A stretch of 64,000 nt of DNA from Yuukianura sp. NJ FZ-2021 (GCA_046563655.1 CM102286.1:5952001-6016000); one strand, 5' to 3'; counted from the first letter of the stretch, positions 478 through 31,646 are shown. Notes: generated by a model from the sequence alone, not told the origin. Program-made: numbers and translations.

Positions 478-3400
478 ATGAAGCCACGGTAAGTCAAAGA
501 AAGTTTCGTCGAATTGGTCAAAAATGTCAAAATTATTTCCATTTGCTTACGAGAATTTCTTCTCTAAAAAATTAATTTTTACCATCTTCTGTTGGAGTAG
601 TGGTGAAGCGCGCAATTTTCAAAAATTGGTTTTTCACGAAATTTCAAAAAGTTGATTTCTTTATGTACTACGGTAACTTTTGTCAGAATGGGGAACATAG
701 TTGAGGACTTAATAAAAAGTACCCCCTCCGCCGTTGTTAGTTTTGGTACGGCATGATGCCTAGTTAGCAGGGCGTTGAGGGTATTAAAACATTCCCTTAA
801 AGGACCCCCTGCCCCTTCAGAAAGAAACTCTTTCATGTGGAACGCAAGAATAATTCATGCGTTCTCTGTCCAATTTTTCTGGAGAGTAAAGGGTACCGCC
901 CTGTAAATTATTACGTTAATGATCTCTCATGAGCCCATTTAGTCCAGCACAAGTGAAATTATAGACTCCTACGGAAATTTTTAGAGTGGGTGTCAAACTT
1001 TTACAAAAAAGAACTTGGACATGAAAGAATCAAATTGTGAGAACAGGAAAGTGTTCACCACCCCCAATTTGTTCAGATAGAAATCAAAGATGTAAACAGA
1101 TTCTGAAGACATCTTGAAAAGTCGCCAAGTGCCGAGCTAGCTGAAACCAGATTTCTCACTTGTAAAGTGCTAGGCGTCAAGAAATTAGCATTGTCGACAT
1201 TAGGAAGTTCTTTTACAACTCTTCTTGTACAAAAGTTGAACTGGGGGTGGTGGAAATGGCCTTCAGCAAACTAAACTTGCAACATCTCGAATGAATTTTC
1301 ATTCGAAGCAGTTTTGAAAATTAGCGGTTTGTACAAATAGAAATACTTCAGAGGTTAACTTTAAGCAATTTCGCATAATCGATGACGTTAGTCACACAAT
1401 TTTAAATAGTTCCGTAAATTAACCTCGCGAAGATTTACAAAACGTACATATTTTATTTAGAACTTAAATTTTGTTTTCAAAATTGGAGCACTTGTGTAGG
1501 ATTTTTTGTTCCTCTTCAAATTTTTGAAATTCAAAATTTTATTTTGAAAACATTATTTTATTTTTCAGGTCATCAATTTTTTTGGTCGCCATCTTCTCCG
1601 TCATCCAGTTTGTCCCTGGCTATACCGAAGAAGGTAATTCACAGTCAATTTTCTGCTTTCAAAAGTGGAACTTACAGAAATTATAATAATCATCCGCATT
1701 CTTCTAATTTTGTAACTTAAACTTTTCGTAACTTATAAAACTTTGTTACTTTTTTTAAGATTTGGAAGTAACGAGAACTGTTGAACCGGCAGTACTTCAA
1801 AGACTTGAATCCCAGTTTCTTAAACGTTTTGGAATGGAGAAGCGTCCGGCTAAACAAAAGTCATCAATTAAAGTAAGAAGTTCAACTGGAAATTTTTCAA
1901 AGAAATTTTAAACAAAATTGAAATTCAAGAGCTAGATCATTTATCAAGTCTCTGAAGATCTCTATTCAATAGCTCCATTGTTTTAATTTTTGGATTTCAG
2001 ATCCCCCGCTACTTGGCTGACTTGTACAAGACCCAAACAGGTCTGGATCTCCCCACGTCGAACCTCAACCTCCCGGGTAAGTTATCCGCATTCAATTAGA
2101 CTTAAAGAATTCTTTAAATTCAATTCTTTCAGAACCATATTCCTTAACGTTCATCAACGTTTTCGAAAGTAACCCATTGTTTTTAACAGGGCGACACACC
2201 AGAACCGCCAATACAGTAAGAACCTTCTACCCAACATCAGATAAGCTCCACTTTGACCTCAGTTCCATTCCACCAGAAGAAGTGGTAACCGGAGCAGAAC
2301 TGCGCATTCCCATCAATAGAACACAAATCCTAAGTGACTTTGGTCAGAGGTCAGCTTCTGACACCAGGACTGAGCCTGAGCCAGAGCTCAAAGTGCGAGT
2401 GATAGTTAACGACGTAGTGAAGTTTAAGGGAAGTGAGCCCTTGATGTATCCGGTGGATTCCAAATTCATTGACTTGACAAAGAGGAAAAGTGACGTGTTC
2501 AGTTTGACACTCGACGTTTTCCCGGCCGTCTCCCGATGGATTGTTTCCAAACAGAAGATGAACAGGGGTCTCATTGTGCAAATCTTCGAAAGTACTGGAA
2601 CCCAGGAAATCAAGTGGACGTGGGATCCAACTAACTACGAAGAGAGGTAAGTTCCAAAAAAAAATGCACTGTAACGTTGTACCGGATAGAACTGAAAGCC
2701 AGCACACAGAAAGCTTTTACTCGGAGAAAGCAGAATCGCTTTATGTCAAGAAGTTATGCCCTTATGCAATTTTCGCACAATTTTCAATTTGGAGTTTTAA
2801 TTTGCAAGCTGCCAAGAGCGTTAGTGATGTTGATGTTGGTTAAAAAAAATTATTTTACTAGAAAAAGATTGGGATTGTTGTACCAAAAAATTAACATTTT
2901 GATTAGAGAGAAAATGTTTGTGTTTTTGCACGCTTTTCCTAGCAAACTTACGCCAAAAGTTATACCACAAGAAGCTAAAAGGATGTATTTGACATATCAA
3001 TTTTTATACAGTACGGGGTTTCGTTGACTAATTGATCATTTTTTTGCAGTCCGACACTGTTTACCTACTCTGATGACGGAGTTCATCATCGTAAGACAAG
3101 AGATGCCAAAACACTTTCCCGTCACTACCGGTCTGCAGTTCAAGAACGAAAGAACCGGAAGAAGCATCGCAACAAAAATAGAAAACGAAATCTCTGTGCA
3201 AGGAGAAAAATGTTTGTAGACTTTGCGGATGTTGGATGGAATGACTGGATAGTCGCACCGCCTGGTGAGCTTCAACTTTTGTTTATAATTTTGAAAAACT
3301 TCAATTTTTAAAACCGCGGAAGATTTAACGAAACTATTTTCGTTTTTTCCAGGGTACGACGCCTACATTTGTTCGGGTGAATGCCCGTTTCCAATGGCGG

Positions 3401-3591
3401 ATCACCTAAATGCTACCAACCATGCCGTGATCCAAGCTTTAGTCAATTCCATGAATCCGCAACAAGTACCTCCACCGTGTTGTGTCCCAACGAAGTACAC
3501 TGGTCTGTCTCTTCTGTACAACGACGCCACAGACAAAGTCGTCTTAAAGAACTACGAGGACATGATCGTAGAGTCATGCGGTTGCAGTTAG
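478..3591 (+). CDS. dpp: Decapentaplegic / BMP2-4 family TGF-beta ligand precursor, about 391 aa, 7 coding exons (478-488, 1569-1633, 1760-1872, 2001-2076, 2190-2646, 3050-3264, 3353-3591)
   Basis: All junctions are GT-AG and phase-consistent. Signal peptide [21 protein letters not shown]; prodomain motifs [20 protein letters not shown] and ANTVRTF; RxxR sites RKTR and RHYR; mature domain [56 protein letters not shown]...CCVPT...[17 protein letters not shown]. Confidence 0.93.
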
Positions 3592-4489: not shown

Positions 4490-5257
4490 TTATGAAAATC
4501 GATTGCTTTGACTTTTGCTGCTTGGTGATGAGGATCTGTACTTCTTAGAGCGCCAAGGATCTCCGCGAATACTGTCATCAAAGATGGCAACCAACTGATT
4601 CACGTCAAAAATGTCTTTTCCCGCCAATTTTTCACTTGTGCCCCAAACAATAATCGTTGGAATCGACTCCAGTCGGATGGTTCTGTCCAATCGGAAGGGA
4701 TTATTCGGATTGGTCCATTCCTCCAAAGTGCCCACTGTGACTCGGACGAAGTACCCACCCTGGTTCTTCGGTGCCTTGAACTTGGCAATGATGGACTCCA
4801 AGTAGTTACATTCTTTGCACCAACTTCCAGTACTTTTAGTACCTTTGGTACTTCCAGGACCACCACCTTCAATGTCACTGGCTGTGAATAGGACGATGAC
4901 TCGCTCAGGAATGATGGCGTGCGTGGCTCTGCGGTATAAAAGTGGGATTCGATACTGGAAGTAGTCGTAGCTGTAGATGCGTTCCTCCTTTAGTGGATTT
5001 TCGTCACGGTCGTCTTCAGAGACGTTGGTAGTTGGCGTACGTATGCTGGGTGTTGATACTGGCATAGGGTTTACCGAAGCTTCAAATTCGAACCGTCGCG
5101 AAAAACGTGTCGGGGAATGTGAACTGGATCGTAGTTTCTTGTTAGCTGCACCAGCCAAAGCCAAGGAAGCAGTTAGCTTTTCAAGTTCTTTCGCTGGACT
5201 TAAGCTCGACGATTTTTTCGAACTTCCTGGACTCGTAGACGGTTTTGGATTCGACAT
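4490..5257 (-). CDS. Intronless thioredoxin-domain protein, TXNDC17/TRP14-like, 255 aa, with Ser/Lys-rich extensions
   Basis: Single ORF. The core VLFTAS...GSWCKEC...VTVGTLEEWTNPNNPFR...IPTIIVWGTSEKL follows the TRP14 pattern (SWCPDC...VG...WKDPNNxFR...VPTLLxxGTxxKL). Confidence 0.82.
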   Translation of the reverse strand: MSNPKPSTSPGSSKKSSSLSPAKELEKLTASLALAGAANKKLRSSSHSPTRFSRRFEFEASVNPMPVSTPSIRTPTTNVSEDDRDENPLKEERIYSYDYFQYRIPLLYRRATHAIIPERVIVLFTASDIEGGGPGSTKGTKSTGSWCKECNYLESIIAKFKAPKNQGGYFVRVTVGTLEEWTNPNNPFRLDRTIRLESIPTIIVWGTSEKLAGKDIFDVNQLVAIFDDSIRGDPWRSKKYRSSSPSSKSQSNRFS

Positions 5258-6100
5258 TTTTCTACACGTTTCTGCAGTTGATGCACAGTATTTGGTCGCA
5301 ATGTCTCAAAGCTTTCGGTTGAATTTAGAGTCTTAGACCAGCTTTAAAAGACTTTCTAACTAAAGCTACATGGTTGAGCGTAAACGAAATAAATGTTTAT
5401 ATCACGGCCAAATTGCGCTGATGATGTAATTTTTGAACTTCCGAAATATTTGCAAAATCTTGTTGCATACTAAACAAATCCAACGCTTGGACACACGTCT
5501 GTAGTCGGGTGCCATAGAAATTCAAATGCTAAAAAAGTGTCGCTAATTTTGATTTTAAATTTTTGGTTTGCAACTGCAATCGGTCGTACACCAGTCCAAC
5601 TCTCACCTTTTTGTCAATTCATAGCGTGCATACGTCAAGCCAGGCTGTTATGTTTTGTAGCGACATTCCGACATTTGAGCCTGTTCCGCTGAAGGCTCAA
5701 CTTCATTATCGCATTTCGGACCTCGTAGCGTTACCTCCTACAGATATTCCAAATGCCAGCTACTGAGTGCTGGAATTCATTTTTGTCGACAAAACCTTGG
5801 TATGAAAATATGGTATGAAAAAGAATGAAAAATAAGAATACAAAACTAAATTTACCTGACTCTTGCAAACTTTATTATATTTTAGTGACTCCACGAAACC
5901 CTTCCACGTCTACTCTAGTTTAATGAAAGTACAAAACGAATCCTGACATCAAGTCCTAACATCCGTATCCCGCCGCCTCCAAACTAAGGTTAGTACTAAC
6001 GCAAGTACACACAGACACACATCCAGTTGTGCTTAATATACTGCAACGGTGCCATAACTCTAAAGAATTGTGTCGGTTAATCAACGTATAATAATACTTC

Positions 6101-9100
6101 CTATTCAATCAGTGTTTCTCCTGGCTCAGGCGTCATTCTTGGATTTTGTTGCGTCGCTTGACCCTGCTGTCCAGTTGTCGGTGATAAGGCTTCGGTTACA
6201 GCACTGCAAATGACAAGTCAATTTATTTATAAAGGCCAATGCAAAGAAGTGTAAGGTTCTTTTACTTACGCTGTGCCTGTATGGTCAACTACTTCGTCAA
6301 TTGTTATATCTCCTTCTTCGAGCAGCGCCAAGTCAGCTACACCGCTGGTTACCATTTTAATACCTTCCAGTTCACTGCAACTCGACATGAACAGCGCTCC
6401 AGATGGAGTGAAGACCAAAGAACTCATTCCGCTGGAACAAAAAAAAAAGCTCATTGAATTTGGTTAAGAAGTGTAACAGAGTTCAGAAGTAATTTTCTAT
6501 ACCTTATGTCACCATTACGACAGCATTCGCCTTTGCCAAGTCGGCGCATATCTCGAACAGCTAGCACGGCAATTTCCCCTGAGTTGCTCAGTACGAGCAA
6601 TGTGTCACCGATAATGCCAACTTTCCGAACTCGAACTCCCTCATGAGCGGTTACTTTCAATTTCCCAAGCGGCCTCAAGTTGGGTAGACTAAATAATTTG
6701 ATTTGCTCTTCGGATGTAATCAGCAGTTTATGCGGAGCGCTGCTCTGCGAATGGATCGGATTGGAATTAGAATCGAGGACGATGATAGAAAGGACGGGAG
6801 CACCGTGCTTCAACTGAATTTCTTTGGCTATTCTAATTGTGTTGGCTACAGTGTACAGGAACACGGTTCCGGCCGCTGTTCCTGCCATGAGGAGACGAGA
6901 TGGAGTTGTATCTGCAAAAATAATAAGAAATCCATAAAAATTAATTCACTCTTAAAATGTTAAAATAATATTTACTTTTCTCAATTTTGTGGATATTTAA
7001 TAAAACTTACGACTGATTAAGTTTCCTCTACTAAAAGAGATTGTACGTATCATGCCGCTTAGTTCTGGACTTCTAGCTTCTACAGCTCTTTCAACCGGTT
7101 TCGCAACTGCATTTGCATTAGCAGCTACTCCACTTCTCCCCTTCCGAAGTCGACGAAAAGACTCGCGAAGCGATTTTTTGATGGATTTTCGCCGTGAAAT
7201 TGGTCCCTCTCCTGCAGCTAGCAGTTCTGTAATTCCAGTAAAACATCAATCCTGGATTTCCAAAACTTCAGAATTAGATATAAAGTGAACGCAAACACTT
7301 ACCGCCACCCAGCGTGGATTTTACTAGAACCACAGCTCTGGTTTTTAGTTCAAGCACACAAAGACCATGAGCTGTTCCCGCAGCTACCAAGTCACCAGTA
7401 CAATCAAGTGCTGTAATGGCGGCTGGAGGATGAATTTGAAGCAAGGCCTTTACGTTCCCATTTGGTGTGTACGTGTAAGTAAGGGGGGAGTGCCCTTTCC
7501 ATGTGAAATCAGATGGAGTCAAATTACATGTAGTGGGCTGGAGCTGAAATAAAATCCTACTTTAAAAAACCGTAAAACTGTGTTGTGTCATTTTACGCAT
7601 TGTTTACCTCCACTTTCTCTTCAACGCTTCCCTGGGTGTCAATTACGACAATTTGTCCAGCCGTGCCTCCGATTACGAGTAGCCCGTTCGAATACCATAT
7701 TTTCTTCACCGCAAGTCTCGGATCGTCAGTAAATGGATCGAAAACACCAACCTATAAAACATACGTCCAATTCCCCCGTTAGTACTGCATTAGCATGTAA
7801 GTATAATTAGTATTCTCAGTACCTTCTGGAATGGCGGCCAATCCTCGTCGTCTCCCCCATCAGCGTTGCTTTCCAAAAGTTCGTCGTGAGAGAAGATGTC
7901 ATTCGTAGTGTACTTTGACATTAAGCACAGATTAGAATTCCAGAACCGCACTAAATACAACATCGATCATCGAAGGTTACAATCCATGCCAGCACATACA
8001 AAAATCACTAAAAAATATATCACGTTTCATGATTACCTGATCCATCCTCGTGGCCCGTTATGATAGTGGCATTAGATTTAGTACTAGTGGTTGATGTCCC
8101 GAGCGGCCAACTCTGCGCGAAGTATGTAATTAGAAACATTGTTACACGTCACGGTTTATGTTTTGTTTCAGTAAAAGTTCTCACCTCCTGCCAGCTTTTC
8201 CCGACTACTTCAGAGGAATAGACTAAGCACGTCACTGCTGAGGGATGAAGACCTACACAGAATATAAATAAATTAAAGTTAGAAATTAAATTGTAATGCC
8301 AGGCGCCAGAAGCTAGATACTTAAAACGAATGAGTACAGTTTAAATAAGGCATTGGCATGACGGGCCATTCTTCCTTCGTCAAATCAATCATAACCAGCT
8401 CCTCTTCTGCACAGATAACCAACGCTGCAGGAGTAGATCCGTCAAGAATGACTTCGAAATCAACAATCTTGGAAGTAAGTTCAAACGCAACGTGCTTTGT
8501 ACCTAATATCCAATATAAGACAGCAGTATAAGTATAATATCCAATATAAGACAACAAATAACCAATCTTGGTGCTTGATCGTTGCATAAAAATGAACTTA
8601 CTTCCTTGGATAGCGCTAACAGTATATCTCTCCCCGAACTCGGCCCGTGGCATTCCGCCACTAAATGCAACAAAATCTCCAGCAGCACGTATTTTGTGTA
8701 TCTTCTTACATGGAAATGGACCTACAAATTAGACAGTAAAAAGCCCCGTAAGTACTGCAACCACTGAAAAACCGAAGCGGAAACATGTTTCCTTTCATAA
8801 GGAATTACCATAAGGAATTTTTACAGTTTTGTCATTTGATGACAAATCCCACGTGACGTAGGACCCGTCATTGTGAGCTGATCTCAGCGTCGAATTATCT
8901 AGCGAGAGACTCTCTAAATGCTGACCATGTGAATAGTGCTACAACAAAGAAAAATTAAAATGTTTTAAATATTATACTGATAGAAAATTATTATTTTATC
9001 TTCAACATCATAGATTTATCGGTATTTTGCCTTACTTTGAGAGGCTTTTGCTCGGCTAAATCCCAAACGACTATAAGCCCCCGCTCGTAACCCAAGATGA

Positions 9101-12451: not shown

Positions 12452-15400
12452 ATGGAGCCATCAGAGTCCGAGTATTGTCTTCGCTGGAAAAAGTACGAAG
12501 TTAACTTCCGGACGTTCTTCGCTGATCTGTATCAAAATGAAGCACTGGTTGATGTGAGTTTGGTTACTCAAGAAGGAGCTATCACGACTGCTCATCGCGT
12601 CGTGCTCTCAGCATGCAGTCAATATTTTCAGGTAATGACATTCTGTCGTTTTAAAAATGATTCGCAGACGTTTTTGTGATTCTGGACGTGACATATGATA
12701 CAGTACAATGACAATCGTGCTGACCTTCCCGTGTTTTCTTTGTTTCAGAACATATTCAACACGATTCCAAATCACCCACATCCCGTGATTGTCTTGAAAG
12801 ATATCTCTGCCGCTGACCTTCAATCCATTCTTTGTTTCATGTACAAGGGCACGGTCAATGTCGTACAAAATCGAGTTAATGGAATTATTACCGTAAGTTT
12901 TGAAAAACTAACGTGTAGTTTAAGTTTTATCTACTAAATTGAAAATCAGAGAACTCAAATGTTTTGGGTTTTAGATTGCCTCTAGTCTTCAAGTCAAGGG
13001 CTTATCCGGGGCGCCATCTTGTTCTCCAGAGCGTCCAGGGCTATCGCCAAACATCCCCACGACAATAAATTCAACGACGAACAATAATTGTTCAGCACCT
13101 CCGTTGAAACCAATTATCGCAAAAGCCATGGCGAACATTATAGCCGGCAGGACATTGCCAAATCTAAGACCTTCTCCAGAAAATGTCAAGGCCAGCCAGA
13201 AGCGGAAACTGGAAATAACACCGCTGTCACATGAGACTGATTATAAAGCACAAGGAGGTAATAATGGAATCTCCTATATTTACGATTTGAAAGGGAATTC
13301 AATTTCGATTTTGATGACAGAAAAAGAGACTGATTATTTCGGTAAACCACCACCACTTCATTGTCAACCTTCTCAAACAAAGTATCCATTACTCGAGAAA
13401 TCATCACAGTCCATTGAAATTAAGCTGGAACACATGGAACCCTCGTCTTTCTCTTCTATGAAAGTAAGTTTTGTTGATTCATGGCTGAAACCAAACTTCT
13501 CATGTTTGGAGTTGATAAAAATCTTAATTTGTGTTGAATAGGATGAAAGTAGTGACGAGGATGACCTGAGCGACAGCAATTTTCTTGGAGTAAATGACAC
13601 TGAGGGAGAAGATGGAAGCAATGGGGATGGTATGCTTGCGCCGCTAATTTACTTTTTATTGGTTATTAAGTAGCTTTAGCTACTTTATAAAAGTATTTTT
13701 GTCCGTCATCGCGTTTTCCGTCATATCTCCATAAGGAAAGCCGGTCCGTCATCACGTTCTCTGTCATGGCATAGGGAACTCCATTGGTCATCACGTTCTC
13801 TGTCATGTCCATAAGATAGGCCTGTCCGTCATCACGTTCTCTGTCATGTCCATAAGAAAGGCCTGTCCGTCATCACGTTCTCTGTCATGACATAGGGAAC
13901 ACCATTGTAAAATGGTGAAAATATCCGCTCAATTATCTCGGAAACTACTGGATCGATTTCGTTCCGGTTTTCACCGTTTAGCAGCTAATGACCCGGGTGA
14001 GGTCAAGTTTGCAAAATCATTCCGGTTAGTGACCTCCTTCCGGGTCAAAATCGATTTCAAAGTTCACGTGAATTCATGCATGGAGAAGTGTGGGTATAAA
14101 AAACTCTGCTTGTGGGACTGGAAAGGTAAATGGCATGGGAGTTGGTTTTCTGCTTAGCAAAAAATCAACTACGCAGCAGTTGACCAACACACTCATGCAC
14201 TGTGTCCTGTCCAAGATCCATTCCTTCTGTTGTTGCTTCATCCGGATCCTACCTCTTCACATCTTAACTTGACCTCACCCCCATTTCCGCTGTGGGGGGT
14301 GAGAAAGTGGGGGAAACACCGCCCCACTCCCCCGGGGAGGTGGGGCGGAAAGGTGGGGAGAACACACCCACTCCCCCGGGAGGGGGTGGGAAAGTGGGGG
14401 GAACACCCCCCCCCCCCGGGGGGGGGGGGGGGGGAACACACCCCACCTAATCGCTAAAGCTACTTTTTTATGTGCGGTTTACAACCGGTTTATTTTTTGT
14501 AGTGGATTCTCAATTAACTATTCACTTTGTAGGATTTCTGTCCAGTTCAAAAACTCTGGAAAGCCTAAACGACAATTTGGGTGGAGTCGAGTTTGTTGAT
14601 GACTCGGATTACTCGGAGGCATTGGAATTCGTGGAACAAGATGTACAATTTCTCAATGACGCTTCTGGCTCAGCAGGCCAGCATTTTATGACAGGTAAGT
14701 TTTTAACTTAGCATAACTTAACAGGATGTTAACTATGAAAAACTCAATTAATCCTGCCAATATTTGTTAGGGGTCACCGGGCAAGAGCAGAAGGCACCTA
14801 CCAAGAGGAAAGCTGGGTCAGAAACTAGAAGATTTAAATGCAATACATGCGGTAATTCCCTTGAATTTAATCAAAATTAATTTAACATAATCTGCGTAAT
14901 AACTTTTATTGGGGAGGTTGCGCTGCAAACCTATTTACTATCTCCCATCGCGATGGGTTTAGGAATAGGTTTAGGTATCGGCATTGTGCGTTACTAAAAA
15001 TGAGCTCACTCTTGCCACTTACCTAACGTCTTGCGACCTATCGGAAAGCCAGGAAATTGCGAAAAAATTCTCACACAGCTGATCCAATGTTTACATCAAC
15101 GTAACATAAGCTATAAAATTGGTATATTCTTAAATGGACTATTGTTTAACTAAAATTTCATATTGTAAAAATTTTCTCATCATCGTTTTAAAATATCGAC
15201 TGTTTTTTCAGAACTTCTGGAATTTCCAAAATTTGTATTTTGTCGTCAAAACTTTAAATTCTTTGCATTAAATTACAAACTGAATTAAATTAAAAATTAA
15301 ATTTACATGATTTTTCTCCAATTCTTTTATGATTTTTTATTTTTTAGTTCATCTGAATTGCCATTTTTTATGGCGTTCATCACAAATTTTATTGTATTTT

Positions 15401-17566
15401 CTGTTCAAATTTCCTACGGCGTATTCGAATTATAATTTATCGGGGAAAATTATTATTTTTCAAAATTTGAATTTTGTTTTCTCTCCGAATTTCGTTTTTT
15501 TCCTCGAAAATTGTGTTTTAAAAAAAGTTGTTTTAAAAAATTTTATTACTGTCTGAAGATTGTTTCATGTTTTTTTAATACTTTTGGTTATTGTCTTCAA
15601 ATTTTCTGTTTTCTCATATTTTTGGTTATTGTGCAAAATTTTTTTGTTGTTTTTAAAATTCTTTTCTTATTTTCTCAAACATTTCTATTCTTTTTCAATA
15701 TTTTTCACTATTGTTTGAAAAAATTTAATCGTTTTTGAATGTTTTTAGTTATTAGGGGTTCTCACGGCCCAAAAAAGAATCCGATTCTTTTCGCAAGTGG
15801 TTCTTTTTTTCTCGGTTTATAATCCTTCTGCTTGAGTGGACCGTTTTTGTGAAAGATTATTAATCGGTTCTTTTTTGAGATGGGAGTAAGAACTTGTAAA
15901 TCGGAATAACCTCTGCTTCACTAGTAGAGTCCAGTTGTTTATTTCATTATTACTTAAAAACAGCTAAGAATTCCGTCGAAAAGTGATAAGCAGTTAATTA
16001 ATAACCTAAGACGCAAAAACGATGATTTGATAAATTTGGCAACAGGACTAGTTTTGTCAGTTCCGTCGTCAGTTACGCATGTATCAGCATCACATTCATC
16101 AGGATCTTTCAGAACGATCAATTCAGTATCCCCCACAGCTTCAAGTACGGTTGACGCTTGGCTAACAATTTCTTCTGGTACTCCAATCTCCACAAAACCA
16201 TCAGAAGCCAAAACAAACGGAGGTGTAACGTTGGCTCGTACCCATTACTTCGTCCAAAACATTAAAGTATGGACATTGCTTTAAGATCCAACCTAAAACA
16301 CAAAACGATGTAATGATCACATTTTCTGCGTCGTATTTTAGGGCTTTTCGTCAGGTATATCTTAGGTAACCTTTGTCAATGTCACTGCCGATGTCAGGAT
16401 CCACCCCAAATCCGCTAGAGTTTAGCTTCTGTCGAATTTCCATGTATTTTCCGATAAACTTGTCAAACCGATTTTTCAACTGCTGATCGGTGCAGTCGAG
16501 CTTCAAGTGGTCATGCATTTTAGGTAGAAAATGTAGCTTCCGACCACCTTTGTCGCCGACATTCTAAAACGGATAGAAACAAATCAAAGAATACAAACAT
16601 TAAAGAAAGTTACGATTAAATACAGTCTTCTATATTTTTTTTCGGAATTTCTCACCTTGTAGGCTTCATAATTTGCAGCAAAGTACTCAGCCATCACAGT
16701 TTTAATTTCATTAGTCCATTTGAATGACGACGGAGTGACCGAACTATCACTGGAGGGGTGACGGGCCTTTGGCATGATAGTTATTTAGATATAACTAATT
16801 AAACTGGAACTAAACACTAAAAACTTATCGATAACTTTGAAAAACGAATAAGAGAAACAGAGAGAATCGGATTCTTTTGAAAAAGAACCACTCCAAAGAG
16901 GTTCCGAGGAAAAAGGGATTATAATCCACTTTTTGAATTTCGCGCCCGAAAAAAAAGAACCGATTCTGAAAAAGAATCGGAATTTGGATTATAATCCACC
17001 ACCGTGAGAACCCCTATTGTCTTAAAATTTTCTACTGTTTTTTAATATTTTTATATATTGTCTTAAAATTTTATATTTCACTTTCTCACAATTATAGGCG
17101 GAATTGAGATAGGTAATGAAGATGGGGTTGGGCTTAGGTCTTATCTAAGAGAGGCCCTCCGTTAGATCACCTATCTCAAAATCTATACCTAACGAGCCGA
17201 TTCTACCTAACAAAAACCGGAAGTAACCTATCTCGTTAGGTGATAGGTCGTGCAGCGCAACCTCCCTCCATTTTCTCTTCCGTATCCATAAACTTAAATG
17301 CGGAGGACTGACTAAACTTAAGCATGTGCCCTTTAATTTTCCTAGGAAACATGTATGCCAAAAAATCGGGCCTTACTCGCCACATGCGTTGTTCTCATGC
17401 TGGATTGAATTCTTTCCTTTGCAATTTATGTAACAAGTGTTATACAAGAAGCGATATACTGACAAAGCATAAGCGACGAGTCCATAACGTTTTTAGTACA
17501 ACTACGGCAGAGAATAATGCAATGGAAATACCTCCTCCAGAAACATTCACAATCACAATAGGATAG
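12452..17566 (+). CDS. Tramtrack/Broad/lola-type BTB-C2H2 zinc-finger protein, isoform A (about 454 aa); exons 12452-12631, 12749-12892, 12975-13463, 13542-13629, 14533-14694, 14771-14851, 17346-17566
   Basis: BTB domain EYCLRWKKY...LVDVSLV...AHRVVLSACSQYFQ...HPHPVIVLKD...FMYKGTVNV...SLQVKGL. Fingers FKCNTCG|NMYAKKSGLTRHMRCSH and FLCNLCNKCYTRSDILTKHKRRVH. Splice phases are consistent. Confidence 0.88.
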
Positions 17567-17985
17567 GTAGGATACACTTCAATATCGTGAACATACAGGC
17601 CTAACTAAATAACTTGGTGAATTTTGACAGGAAACCAGTACAACAAATATTCTCACCTCAATCGACAGTAAGTGTTTGTTTTTTTAGTTAAATAATTGAC
17701 CTTGTCGAAAGTCAAGTTAAAGTAAACTTAAACTTTCAACTAATCGATGTTTATTTTCTATTCCTACAGCCTGCAGACTCATGCGGACCCAAGGTACGCA
17801 AGAATAAAAAAAAGGCTCCCGAATTCCGGCCTTTAACATTTTTAACATTGCGGTTAATCATTTTGTATTTTCGTTTTAGATTTCAATGTGATAAGTGTCT
17901 GAAATTGTTCGTTCGGAAGGATGTGCTGCGCCGACACCTCATCGAAGTTCACAATGTGGTTGTGCAAAATTGTAAAATCAAATGA
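12452..17985 (+). CDS. BTB-C2H2 protein isoform B (about 436 aa): shared exons to 14851, then 17631-17667, 17770-17793, 17880-17985
   Basis: Three small GT-AG exons, absent from the ORF track, join in frame to give FKCNTCG|NQYNKYSHLNR|HLQTHADP|RFQCDKCLKLFVRKDVLRRHLIEVH...stop, which is two canonical C2H2 fingers. Confidence 0.8.
13697..13910 (+). repeat. About five 39-43 bp tandem units (core GTCATCACGTTCTCTGTCATG) inside the HINE-like element
   Basis: Units are directly visible, e.g. GTCCGTCATCACGTTCTCTGTCATGTCCATAAGATAGGCCT. Confidence 0.9.
14278..14448. repeat. G/C-run tandem repeat with self-complementary C-run/G-run hairpins
   Basis: Repeated unit resembling GGGGGTGGGAAAGTGGGGGAACACCC...CCCCGGGG, ending in a long poly-C/poly-G tract. 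Confidence 0.85.
15754..17015 (-). mobile_element. PIF/Harbinger-superfamily non-autonomous element carrying only a Myb/SANT-like gene, nested in the previous element
   Basis: TIR AGGGGTTCTCACGG / CCGTGAGAACCCCT; 3-bp ATT duplication (15751-15753 and 17016-17018); mirrored subterminal AAGAATC(C/G)GATTCTT, AAAGAACC and TTATAATCC motifs. No DDE transposase ORF. Confidence 0.85.
15954..16775 (-). pseudogene. Myb/SANT-like DNA-binding gene of the Harbinger-type element; 3 exons (16775-16656, 16563-16371, 16292-15954) with a probable frameshift near 16238
   Basis: Spliced product MPKAR...FKWTNEIKTVMAEYF...CTDQQLKNRFDKFIGKYMEIRQKLNSSGFGVD...WILKQCPYFNVLDEVMG. The frame then stops at 16201-16203, while RANVTPPFVLASDG... 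continues in another frame to 15954. Confidence 0.72.
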
Positions 17986-18853
17986 TAAAACCTTTACGAC
18001 CTTGAGGGGACGTCCTACGGAGCCATACAACGACTAGAAAAAGGAATCTACGCTGTTGCTAATTACAGAATTCACGTTCGGCGCTGTTTATTTTTGCTAA
18101 GTAAATGAAATCTAAGACAGAATTTATTCTTCGAAAATACAGGACTGTAATTATTTATTTATATTAAACTCCATAAAAAACGTAATTTGTTTGACTGTTC
18201 TCAGAATGAAAGTTTCATTACATTACATACAAACCCAAGCAGGAATTAAGCGTAAACATTTGTTTTGGAAGCGTGCAAGTGCAAGGCCTTATTTCAGAAA
18301 GAAAACTTGCTGCTGAAGGTAGGAACAGATTTAACCCAATGCGGTCAATTCAAAACCGCGAAGAAGAAATTTGTTTTTTTTTGTCATGTCAAGACGACAG
18401 GATGAAAACATTGAAAACAATATTTTACTTGTAGAGTCCTAATTCATTCGAGATTTGATGTACAACAAGTGCTAGATTCATTTTTTAAAACTTATTTAAC
18501 GTTTGGTAGGTTTTTTTTTATTACAACAGTTCCAACGGAGGAAAGCTCAATCAAAGTTTCCATACCAAACAGCTGATCCTCATTGTGGCTTAGTAAGTAA
18601 ACGGGACGGGAATTTAATGTTGTCACCTTCACTTTCTCTATCAAACATCTAAAGTCAAAGTTAATCTTTTTTAATAATTTAATTTTATAAAATAATTTTC
18701 TGATAATTTATAGTCTTTGATTTTATTTCACCCGCTCTAAAAGGTAAACAAGTGGACGCAACGAAGAATCTTCGTCGCATCATTTGCAATTATCCATTCA
18801 CTGGTCTAGTGCCGAGGCCGACGCCGAGAATCTAATATTTGTTGGACTACGTT

Positions 18854-26185: not shown

Positions 26186-27331
26186 TCAGAACATGTTTAA
26201 ACACGAAATCAATTGAGAGCAAAGGAAGTCCAGGAACATCAAAGTGCTGCAACAGTCAACGAAGTAAAATCCTCCATTTTTGAATTCAAGCGCTCTCAAA
26301 CTCCGCACAACTTTACGGACGCCTGGCTGATGACTCATATTTGACAAGTTGCCACGGATGAACCCAGCCGAATCCTGATTGACTTTCCCCATTGGTCCCA
26401 AAATTATGAAATTTCGAAAAAGTCCTATCGCTGCAGTACTTACAAAAGTAGTTTGACTGAGGAACGGAATTTTTGAAAAAGAGCGAATACACATAAATAC
26501 AATTGTTGTAATGAAGAAAATAAAAATGTACTGCAATCTATAAATCCACCAAGATGTGACCTCGTTGATCCGATTCATGACGCATCCCAAGTATTTGTAA
26601 AGCTCAGTTGCCTTTTCTGGTGTCAGACGGCCTTGATCCAACAATTCTTGGATCATTTTTTGATGGAGGTGAATTCGTCGGGCGAAAAGTGACACAAAAA
26701 CTTCTGGGCCGAATTGGAGGAATGCTGAAATGAAAACATAAATCCATTCGTGTGCAACAAATCCAATACGAATAAGAGCAATAGCGTTAGGATTTTCAAT
26801 CCAAGATTCAAACTGAAATATGCTGTAGACAAACATGCTGTGATTGGGGTAGATGACAAAGTACATTGCTACACCAAAAGCTGCAGAAAACATGTTGTAT
26901 ACAATGACGGATAAAATCCACTTCATCTGTGTCACTTCGCGCTTAATGAATATGTCCAATTCAGCGTTGTGCAAAACACTGCTCATGTTATTGAAAAGAT
27001 CGTTCCAGAGGGAAATAATTTTTTGAACAGTTCCATTTTTGCCGCCAGTGAACGAATACAGTGAATTGGACATTATAAGGGCACAGACGAACCACACCGC
27101 ATCTGTAGCAATCTGGATAGCATTGGACTCCTTTTGTCCAATCACAATCAGGAGACAGTTGCTGCAAAATCGCATTACGATAAACTGTGTTTCCATGAAT
27201 AAGAACCACGAACAAAATCTGTAACGCAGGACTCGCGAATTTTTCATGCGCCAAGCGTTTGACAATGGGGTTGTTCTATTTCCTCTACAAAATTTGACAA
27301 TGTCAACTGCCCATAAATACAATTCTTCCAT
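26186..27331 (-). CDS. Intronless gustatory-receptor-like 7TM chemoreceptor, about 381 aa
   Basis: Single ORF from the first ATG (MEELYLW) with multiple hydrophobic helices. The C-terminal LEFKNGGFYFVDCCSTLMFLDFLCSQLISCL resembles the GR TM7 region (GFFxID...TYLI) in divergent form. Confidence 0.7.
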   Translation of the reverse strand: MEELYLWAVDIVKFCRGNRTTPLSNAWRMKNSRVLRYRFCSWFLFMETQFIVMRFCSNCLLIVIGQKESNAIQIATDAVWFVCALIMSNSLYSFTGGKNGTVQKIISLWNDLFNNMSSVLHNAELDIFIKREVTQMKWILSVIVYNMFSAAFGVAMYFVIYPNHSMFVYSIFQFESWIENPNAIALIRIGFVAHEWIYVFISAFLQFGPEVFVSLFARRIHLHQKMIQELLDQGRLTPEKATELYKYLGCVMNRINEVTSWWIYRLQYIFIFFITTIVFMCIRSFSKIPFLSQTTFVSTAAIGLFRNFIILGPMGKVNQDSAGFIRGNLSNMSHQPGVRKVVRSLRALEFKNGGFYFVDCCSTLMFLDFLCSQLISCLNMF

Positions 27332-27559
27332 TGTTGGATCAAATCGTATCGTAACAAAGTCCAAACACTAACTAAACTGAAATTTCAGTTTCAAAAATAA
27401 ACACGTGCCAAACGATTTTCAAGGTTTCTCTAGATTTAATTCAGCTTGTTATTAGTGGCCTTCAAGTTTCTGCATTTTTAAAATTAATCTTATCCTAAAG
27501 TTTCCAATCAAGAAGGTATAATTGAAATGTTAAAGTTTTAAATGTTTTTCATAATAAGA

Positions 27560-30832: not shown

Positions 30833-31646
30833 TTAAGCTTTCTTTTCACAAATATAATTTTTTGTTCCTCCAGTCGCCTGAGAATTGGCGTATGTGCATG
30901 CATATCCTTCACAACATTTAGTTCCATCGATAGAACATGGCATTCCTTCGTCCAAACATGATTGGGCACACATATTATGTTTGTTGCATTTCGAATACGA
31001 ACAGCAATCGGCATCACTTTTGCATGGCCATTCTCGAACTCCGCAGCGAACACATACATCGTTGACAGAACAGCGAAAGTCATATCGCTTGTAATTTTTT
31101 CCATAACTGGTGTCACATCTTAGAACTTCCTGTGAGTATCCAGGCAATCGAACTTTGAGTAGTTTTTCATTTTTACCGCAACGGTCCGCATGACATGTTC
31201 CAAATTTTCTATTTCCAACCAAAACACCTCCGACGCAATCCACAAACTTCTTTCCGGGCGTCGGACAACATAACGTTGGCGGTTTGTCATCGACGCGTTC
31301 ACAATATTTTCCATATTTTGCACACATGATGCATTTCCCCGCCAAACATGCGACGCCATAGTTAGTTCGTTTGTTCTTTGGAATGAGATCTTGCGAGCAA
31401 GGACATGCTCCACCAAGAGCACGACTTTCTTCTCCAACTGAAATTGAAATTACATAAGTATAGTCTGTCGAAAATTAGTTCATATGATGCATATCGTAAT
31501 TACTTGTTATGCTTACCATTTTCAGACCCCGTGTTTGGACCCGTAATATTTGAGACGTCAGTGCGTTTTTGCAAGATATTAGTAGTCCAAGATGGGTTCA
31601 CAAGTAGAAATGTTATTATTACAAGCATCCAAATAGTTGCGTACAT
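30833..31646 (-). CDS. Secreted 26-Cys multi-knottin (three ICK motifs) precursor, about 244 aa; exons 31646-31517 and 31437-30833
   Basis: Signal peptide MYATIWMLVIITFLLVNPSWT and a phase-1 GT-AG intron. Three C-x6-C-x5..10-CC-xn-C-xn-C motifs: CAKYGKYC...LCC...DC...TC; CGVREWPCKSDADCCSYSKCNKHNMC; CLDEGMPCSIDGTKCCEGYAC...IC. Confidence 0.85.

What the first reader, a model, noticed from the sequence alone, without database searches (positions are those of the whole stretch)
14771..17985. Split zinc finger: splicing swaps the DNA-recognition helix within one C2H2 finger
Seen: the last shared exon ends mid-finger (RFKCNTC-G, phase 1, 14851). Two acceptors, both followed by GAAAC (17346 and 17631), complete it differently. 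Isoform A gives GNMYAKKSGLTRHMRCSH plus finger CNLC..TRSDILTKHKRRVH. Isoform B, built from 37-, 24- and 106-nt exons, gives GNQYNKYSHLNRHLQTH plus finger CDKC..VRKDVLRRHLIEVH. Known: the base-contacting residues of C2H2 fingers lie in the helix half, and broad/fru/ttk/lola typically diversify by exchanging whole finger-containing 3' exons. Inference: one shared Cys pair is combined with alternative His-helix halves, a compact switch of binding specificity that ORF-based annotation would miss.
Basis: partly seen in the sequence, partly recalled or inferred. Interest (0 to 1): 0.8.

Follow-up and report, generated by a model that had tools for sequence, protein, structure and literature searches.

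The report
Zinc finger completed by alternative exons
An insect-type BTB transcription-factor gene stops its last common exon in the middle of a zinc finger and offers two old, intact, duplicated 3' exon sets that could each finish that finger and add a second one, but no RNA data could be found to show that both are used.

Summary
A BTB/zinc-finger gene (CDS 12452-17985, + strand) has six common coding exons. The last one (14771-14851) ends one base after the Cys pair of finger 1. Two GT-AG-bounded cassettes follow. Cassette A is 17346-17566. Cassette B is 17631-17667, 17770-17793 and 17880-17985. Each gives an open full-length frame (454 or 436 aa), the helix/His half of finger 1 and a complete finger 2.

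B is not a chance reading. An exhaustive GT/AG enumeration finds only that solution, and 0 of 300 shuffles give any.

A and B are old paralogues under protein-level constraint: 23 of 55 aligned codons are identical, and codon-position identity is 0.56/0.56/0.36. The gene is conserved in a related organism.

No RNA run was listed and no orthologous finger exons could be fetched, so use of both cassettes is inferred. The canonical base-contact positions are largely the same in A and B, so any specificity switch is probably subtle.

It is a new variant of a known kind: 3' zinc-finger exon swapping in tramtrack-group genes, and intra-finger splicing in CF2. Interest about 0.4.

The parts
12452..12631 (+). 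Coding exon 1: start codon and N-terminal half of the BTB domain, with a Y-C-L-R-W-K variant of the TTK motif
   Evidence: Pfam BTB 33.7 bits. Orthologous ORFs are 86% and 79% identical.
12749..12892 (+). Coding exon 2: second part of the BTB domain
   Evidence: Pfam BTB 25.6 bits. 42 of 48 residues are identical in L001.
12975..13463 (+). Coding exon 3: end of BTB and a low-complexity linker with a basic K-R-K stretch
   Evidence: No Pfam family. Partly conserved in L001.
13542..13629 (+). Coding exon 4: acidic stretch, ends in phase 1
14533..14694 (+). Coding exon 5 (162 nt, phase 1 to phase 1)
14771..14851 (+). Last common exon (81 nt): basic stretch and the beta-hairpin/Cys-pair half of finger 1. 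Ends one base into a Gly codon.
14852..17345 (+). Intron before cassette A (2494 nt). 2357 nt of it is a TIR-bounded insertion (14911-17267) that holds a second TIR element (15754-17015).
   Evidence: Weak Myb_DNA-bind_3 match on a minus-strand ORF at 16351-16563.
17346..17566 (+). Cassette A: helix/His half of finger 1 (H-x4-H), 7-residue linker, complete finger 2, 26-residue tail, stop TAG
   Evidence: Pfam zf-C2H2 and zf-H2C2_2, both sub-threshold. Aligns in register with Zif268/Aart.
17631..17667 (+). Cassette B, micro-exon 1 (37 nt): start of the helix half of finger 1. A CTAAC branch-site-like motif lies at 17601-17605.
   Evidence: The branch motif was read by eye.
17770..17793 (+). Cassette B, micro-exon 2 (24 nt): His pair (H-x3-H) of finger 1 and start of the linker
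17880..17985 (+). Cassette B, last exon (106 nt): complete finger 2, short tail, stop TGA
   Evidence: Pfam zf-C2H2 22.3 bits. PDB matches.
17803..17808 (+). AATAAA hexamer inside the second B intron. A possible poly(A) signal for an A-only transcript (inferred).
18163..18168 (+). ATTAAA hexamer 178 nt after the B stop. A possible shared or B poly(A) signal (inferred).

Best explanation
This is a tramtrack-group-like BTB/C2H2 transcription-factor gene of an arthropod, probably an insect. Its ancestral form already had a phase-1 intron inside finger 1, directly after the Cys pair. Everything downstream of that intron was duplicated in tandem long ago: the helix half of finger 1, the linker, finger 2, the tail and the stop. 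That duplication produced cassettes A and B.

The single donor at 14851 can pair with the acceptor at 17346 or with the acceptor at 17631. Pairing with 17346 gives isoform A, with a one-exon ending. Pairing with 17631 gives isoform B, in which two further short introns of 102 and 86 nt are removed by intron definition. Each choice joins the same beta-hairpin/Cys pair to a different helix/His pair and adds a different second finger. The result is two two-finger DNA-binding modules on one BTB scaffold.

Shown: the sequence anatomy, its departure from chance, the paralogy and constraint of A and B, and the conservation of the gene. Inferred: that both junctions are used in vivo, how the choice is regulated, and that the two modules differ in DNA preference. 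Any such difference is probably modest and centred on position 3 of finger 1, the finger spacing and the tails.
For: - Both joined frames are open from the ATG to a stop (454 and 436 aa), and all introns are GT-AG.
- The hybrid fingers have canonical C-x2-C-x12-H-x4-H (A) and C-x2-C-x12-H-x3-H (B) spacing (read).
- B's three exons are the only solution of an exhaustive enumeration, and 0 of 300 shuffles give a solution.
- A and B are paralogues: 23 of 55 aligned codons are identical, and all zinc ligands and core residues align. Codon-position identity is 0.56/0.56/0.36, so third positions are near saturation while positions 1 and 2 are kept.
- The orthologue in L001 differs from the window at only about half of the third positions (0.54 and 0.50) and has the same intron positions. 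If A and B arose by local duplication, the split is therefore older than that species divergence, and an unused copy should have decayed.
- Both acceptors share the AG|GAAAC junction. Each has a branch-site-like motif about 26-33 nt upstream, read by eye.
- Exon A aligns with solved tandem fingers starting at the aromatic residue before the helix.
- Tramtrack-group BTB factors commonly have isoforms that differ in the C-terminal DNA-binding domain (PMC11426971, passages).
Against: - There is no transcript evidence of any kind. No RNA run was listed, and the collections searched hold no transcript-derived protein with either junction.
- Conservation of the A and B exons in other species could not be tested. 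The one related contig (L001) ends inside coding exon 3.
- The dating argument assumes a local duplication. If A was imported from a diverged paralogue, the A/B divergence says nothing about how long B, or A, has been idle.
- B's first acceptor has a weak pyrimidine tract.
- No poly(A) signal lies between the A stop and the B acceptor, so A transcripts would carry B sequence in their 3' UTR or end at the intronic AATAAA at 17803.
- The Pfam finger matches are below the curated cut-offs.
Confidence: 0.68

Rival explanations
1. Only one cassette is used productively. The other is an unused relic of a duplication or exon replacement, or it yields only a rare, non-functional or degraded transcript.
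For: No expression data exist. The B acceptor has a weak pyrimidine tract. An A transcript would have splice junctions or a long stretch downstream of its stop. The dating argument fails if A was acquired from another paralogue.
Against: Both cassettes keep open frames, all eight zinc ligands, the hydrophobic core residues and, for B, six intact splice sites. They keep these despite near-saturated third-position divergence (0.36), which exceeds the orthologue divergence (0.50-0.54).
Confidence: 0.22
2. Cassette B belongs to another transcription unit, for example an internal promoter or a downstream gene, and is not joined to the BTB gene.
For: Nothing specific. Without RNA data it cannot be excluded formally.
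Against: B starts with a phase-1 acceptor only 65 nt after the A stop. It has no start codon or Cys pair of its own in front of the helix half. It completes a finger only with a phase-1 donor that supplies a Cys pair, and 14851 is the only such donor seen.
Confidence: 0.04
3. The whole pattern is a chance reading of non-coding DNA.
For: The helix-half pattern alone is not enriched window-wide: 5 observed against a mean of 3.6 in shuffles. The Pfam finger scores are sub-threshold.
Against: The full-length frames are open through nine or seven exons. 0 of 300 shuffles give a B solution. The BTB matches are above threshold. An orthologue shows strong purifying selection.
Confidence: 0.02

Closest known systems
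Alternative 3' zinc-finger exons of tramtrack-group BTB genes (fruitless, lola, broad, tramtrack)
   Same: An N-terminal BTB scaffold is combined by splicing with alternative C-terminal pairs of C2H2 fingers. Such isoforms are described as typical of the group (PMC11426971, passages). In Aedes fruitless the terminal exons zA, zB and zC each encode a finger domain (PMC3572092, passages).
   Different: In those genes, as far as the passages I read and my recollection go, the alternative exons carry whole finger pairs. Here the swap point lies inside finger 1, so the Cys-pair half is shared. There are only two cassettes, 65 nt apart, and one of them is split into micro-exons of 37 and 24 nt.
Drosophila Chorion factor 2 (CF2) isoforms
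   Same: Alternative splicing inside a C2H2 array changes the finger set and the preferred DNA site. The isoform-specific segment starts or ends within a finger: 'half of Zn finger 5'' in PMC2876027 (passages), and a legend in PMC3245913. The primary papers, Hsu et al. 1992 and Gogos et al. 1992, were seen only as references.
   Different: CF2 uses alternative 5' splice sites of one exon to add or drop fingers. It is not a BTB protein. It does not offer two paralogous completions of one shared half-finger.
Alternative exons that arose by tandem exon duplication (general class)
   Same: The cassettes are paralogous, adjacent, in the same phase and homologous in structure, and they are chosen by splice-site competition.
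   Different: Here the duplicated unit is the 3'-terminal part of the gene, including the stop codon. The choice is therefore between two acceptors and endings, not between internal exons. Expression is unverified.

Membership tests
Tramtrack-group (TTK-type) BTB transcription factors | N-terminal BTB/POZ domain | tested here: met
   Pfam BTB scores 33.7 and 25.6 bits on coding exons 1 and 2, against a cut-off of 20.5. Relatives found by phmmer are arthropod BTB proteins.
Tramtrack-group (TTK-type) BTB transcription factors | FxLRWN motif in the N-terminal extension (PMC11426971, passages) | tested here: inconclusive
   The window has Y-C-L-R-W-K at residues 8-13: Y for F and K for N, with L-R-W kept. 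The orthologous ORFs P0033 and P0034 have the same variant. No TTK-motif profile was available to score it.
Tramtrack-group (TTK-type) BTB transcription factors | One or two C-terminal C2H2 fingers (PMC11426971, passages) | tested here: met
   Either cassette gives two fingers at the C-terminus. The Pfam finger matches are sub-threshold.
Tramtrack-group (TTK-type) BTB transcription factors | Hexamer-forming dimer-dimer interface | not tested
   No structure prediction was run on the BTB domain, because the joined exons could not be handed to the folding tools.
Classical C2H2 zinc finger | C-x2-4-C-x12-H-x3-5-H spacing with an aromatic residue and a Leu in the core | tested here: met
   All four fingers fit: the two hybrid first fingers after joining and the two second fingers. 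Exon A aligns in register with Zif268 and Aart.
Alternatively spliced gene with two functional 3' cassettes | Transcripts with each junction | not testable with these tools
   No RNA holder was listed, no genome is held and no transcript-derived protein was found.
Alternatively spliced gene with two functional 3' cassettes | Both cassettes conserved in related species | not testable with these tools
   The only related contig, L001, ends in coding exon 3. The profile search with both cassettes found no candidate.

The most novel reading that the evidence does not exclude
Both isoforms are made and regulated, by stage, tissue or sex. The shared beta-hairpin joined to alternative helices gives two proteins with measurably different DNA-site preferences. 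That would be a natural helix swap within one C2H2 finger, and a mode of isoform diversification not described for tramtrack-group BTB factors in anything I could find (10 of 10 paper searches).
Probability: 0.35. Interest if true: 0.6.

Novelty: new variant of a known kind. Interest (0 to 1): 0.4.

Why it matters
If both junctions are used, this gene shows that 3' exon swapping in arthropod BTB/zinc-finger factors can operate below the level of a whole finger. The zinc-binding hairpin would be reused and only the DNA-reading helix and the next finger exchanged. That would give a compact natural test of how far a helix alone sets finger specificity.

It is also a warning for annotation. Two micro-exons (37 and 24 nt) and a half-finger exon are invisible to ORF-based gene calling. 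The only database relatives found are exon-level ORFs that read into introns.

The expected functional difference is modest, because most canonical contact residues are shared. It is a neat case, not a surprising one.

Tried and rejected
- RNA evidence: no RNA holder was listed for 17300-18200, so read laying could not be used. No whole genome is held for the window.
- Word-indexed protein searches. Exon A against longer proteins gave 14 candidates, none at E <= 0.001. A profile of A plus the last B exon against proteins of near length gave no candidate.
- BTB exon 1 against longer proteins: 32 of 41 candidates passed, all at most 55% identical. The 10 I fetched are crustacean multi-isoform BTB proteins that are similar only in the BTB domain. 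I rejected them as orthologues.
- Full HMMER search with BTB exon 1: 2403 proteins at E <= 0.001. Only two are close, at 86% and 79% identity, and both are short exon-level ORFs.
- The metagenome contig found through one of those ORFs ends before the finger exons.
- Earlier findings of this scan: nothing near, nothing in relatives, nothing by words.
- Literature: 10 of 10 searches used. Six returned 0 papers. None of the listed papers describes a shared half-finger with alternative completions in a BTB gene. Subscription papers, such as the 1992 CF2 papers and the lola and broad gene-structure papers, are outside the library, so this is not proof that it is not in print.
- Further cassettes: none found. 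There is no other full finger on the + strand near the gene and no other AGGAAAC nearby.
- A donor inside exon A that would chain A to B: considered by eye and rejected, because the only GT in a comparable place would create a stop codon.
- Long-range inverted repeats as a splice selector: 5 pairs were found in 13600-18100, all weak or inside the inserted elements. I did not pursue this.
- Structure or complex prediction of the hybrid fingers: not run, because the joined products cannot be handed to those tools.

Full report
**What is there**

The window is AT-rich eukaryotic DNA (GC 0.33-0.44) with short GT-AG introns. It carries arthropod-type genes: a TGF-beta ligand, a TXD17-like thioredoxin and Lgl.

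Between 12452 and 17985 on the + strand I could build one coherent gene. The six common coding exons are 12452-12631, 12749-12892, 12975-13463, 13542-13629, 14533-14694 and 14771-14851. A probable 5' UTR exon ends at about 12326; I read this by eye.

Exons 1 and 2 match Pfam BTB above threshold, at 33.7 and 25.6 bits against a cut-off of 20.5. The N-terminus carries Y-C-L-R-W-K. This is a variant of the FxLRWN motif that defines tramtrack-group BTB domains (PMC11426971, passages).

The last common exon ends one base into a Gly codon, directly after a CxxC pair that follows a basic stretch.

**The two cassettes**

Acceptor 17346 opens a 221-nt exon that runs to a TAG at 17564-17566. Acceptor 17631 opens a 37-nt exon, followed by exons of 24 and 106 nt that are separated by introns of 102 and 86 nt, and the frame ends at a TGA at 17983-17985.

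Joined to the common exons, both frames are open from the ATG, giving 454 and 436 aa.

In both cases the shared Cys pair gains an aromatic residue, a Leu and a His pair at canonical spacing. The spacing is C-x2-C-x12-H-x4-H in A and C-x2-C-x12-H-x3-H in B. A complete second finger follows.

**Is it more than chance?**

- A regex for full fingers matches 4 times in six frames of 64 kb. Two of the matches are the second fingers of A and B.
- A looser helix-half pattern is not enriched over the whole window (5 observed against a mean of 3.6 in 20 shuffles). However, 3 of the 5 matches lie in 17354-17952 on the + strand.
- For the split cassette B, I enumerated every one- or two-exon GT/AG path through 17567-17879 that would link a phase-1 donor to the last B exon and complete a finger. 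None of 300 shuffles has any.
- AGGAAAC occurs 6 times in the window, and two of these are the two acceptors.
- The Pfam finger matches (22.9 and 22.3 bits for zf-C2H2; 22.0 bits for zf-H2C2_2 on residues 9-34 of exon A) are below the curated cut-offs.
- phmmer against solved structures aligns residues 3-43 of exon A in register with the helix, linker and next finger of Zif268, Aart and others. The last B exon aligns with single fingers of TFIIIA, ZBTB17 and others.

**Age and constraint**

A and B align over 55 codons with 23 identical residues, and the identical residues include every zinc ligand. Identity by codon position is 0.56, 0.56 and 0.36. Third positions are close to what unrelated AT-rich sequence would give, while first and second positions are kept.

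For scale, a related organism is available. A full HMMER search of 1.84 billion representatives with BTB exon 1 gave 2403 hits at E <= 0.001, but only two are close, at 86% and 79% identity. Both are short ORFs that read from the exon into the intron, and each comes from a single contig.

The metagenome contig behind one of them (L001, 2714 nt) carries the same first three coding exons with introns at the same positions. In the two BTB exons, 50 of 59 and 42 of 48 residues are identical. Codon-position identity is 0.90/0.93/0.54 and 0.90/0.98/0.50.

The gene is therefore alive and under purifying selection. If A and B arose by local duplication, as the shared AG|GAAAC junction suggests, they separated well before these two organisms did. 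An idle copy should by now have stops, frameshifts or broken splice sites, and neither cassette has any.

The weak point of this argument is the assumption of local duplication.

**What could not be shown**

- No RNA run was listed for the region, so no reads could be laid.
- No genome is held for the window.
- The word-indexed searches found no protein with either cassette.

Use of both junctions, and conservation of the cassettes, therefore remain inferences.

**How it most likely works**

One donor (14851) competes for two acceptors.

The intron to A is 2494 nt. Of this, 2357 nt is a TIR-bounded insertion (14911-17267) that itself holds a second TIR element (15754-17015). The original intron was therefore about 137 nt.

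Each acceptor has a branch-site-like motif 26-33 nt upstream: CTGAC at 17308-17312 and CTAAC at 17601-17605, both read by eye. A has the better pyrimidine tract, and B has the better branch motif.

B's micro-exons are flanked by short introns of the size that insects remove by intron definition (established knowledge, not tested here).

No poly(A) hexamer lies between the A stop and the B acceptor. AATAAA lies at 17803, inside the second B intron, and ATTAAA lies at 18163. A transcripts would either end in the B region or carry it as 3' UTR.

**How different would the proteins be?**

I used the register and the classical -1/2/3/6 contact scheme. The scheme is recalled and was not tested here.

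| Finger | Cassette A | Cassette B |
|---|---|---|
| Finger 1 | K, S, G, R | K, S, H, R |
| Finger 2 | R, D, I, K | R, D, V, R |

Only position 3 of finger 1 changes in kind. The modules also differ in His spacing, in linker length (7 versus 6 residues) and in their tails. I therefore expect overlapping sites with a modest shift, not a wholesale change of specificity.

**Comparison with what is known**

Tramtrack-group BTB factors typically have isoforms that differ in the C-terminal DNA-binding domain (PMC11426971, passages). In Aedes fruitless the alternative terminal exons each encode a finger domain (PMC3572092, passages).

Splicing inside a finger array that alters the finger set and the preferred site is known from CF2, where the isoform-specific segment begins or ends within a finger (PMC2876027 and PMC3245913, passages). 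The 1992 primary papers were seen only as references.

I found no description of a shared half-finger with two paralogous completions in a BTB gene in 10 searches. The library lacks most subscription papers.

I file the finding as a new variant of a known kind.

**Verdict**

- Best explanation: two maintained alternative 3' cassettes created by tandem duplication downstream of an intra-finger intron, at about 0.68.
- Main rival: only one cassette is used, at about 0.22.
- Interest: 0.4.

Noticed in passing
window 14911-17267 (inner element 15754-17015): Nested transposon-like insertions fill 2357 of the 2494 nt of the intron before cassette A. The outer element has 17-nt terminal inverted repeats (1 mismatch). 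The inner element has perfect 14-nt repeats and minus-strand ORFs, one of which gives a weak Myb_DNA-bind_3 match (17.8 bits, below cut-off).
   Followed up: partly
window 13630-14532: The intron between coding exons 4 and 5 holds a run of roughly 30-nt direct repeats (about 13700-13900) and a G/C-rich low-complexity stretch with long C and G homopolymers (about 14290-14440). It is probably another inserted repeat. Read by eye.
   Followed up: no
window 2081-3591 (+), 4490-5305 (-), 6451-8728 (-): Neighbouring genes by Pfam: a TGF-beta family ligand (propeptide plus mature domain), a TXD17-like thioredoxin-domain protein, and a Lethal giant larvae (LLGL/Lgl_C) gene.
   Followed up: partly
window 26186-27367 (-) and 30833-31474 (-): A 393-aa uninterrupted frame and a 213-aa Cys-rich frame have no Pfam match at E <= 0.01. 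Their nature was not pursued.
   Followed up: no
L001 1758-2500: A 2714-nt metagenome contig carries the 5' part of an orthologue of the BTB gene. It has the same intron positions and the same Y-C-L-R-W-K motif variant. This is arthropod DNA within a metagenome collection.
   Followed up: partly
window 14849-14857 versus 17346-17350 and 17631-17635: Reading through the donor at 14851 would also give Gly-Asn, the same two residues that both spliced cassettes give after the Cys pair. It then runs into a stop nine codons on. This is possibly a coincidence.
   Followed up: no
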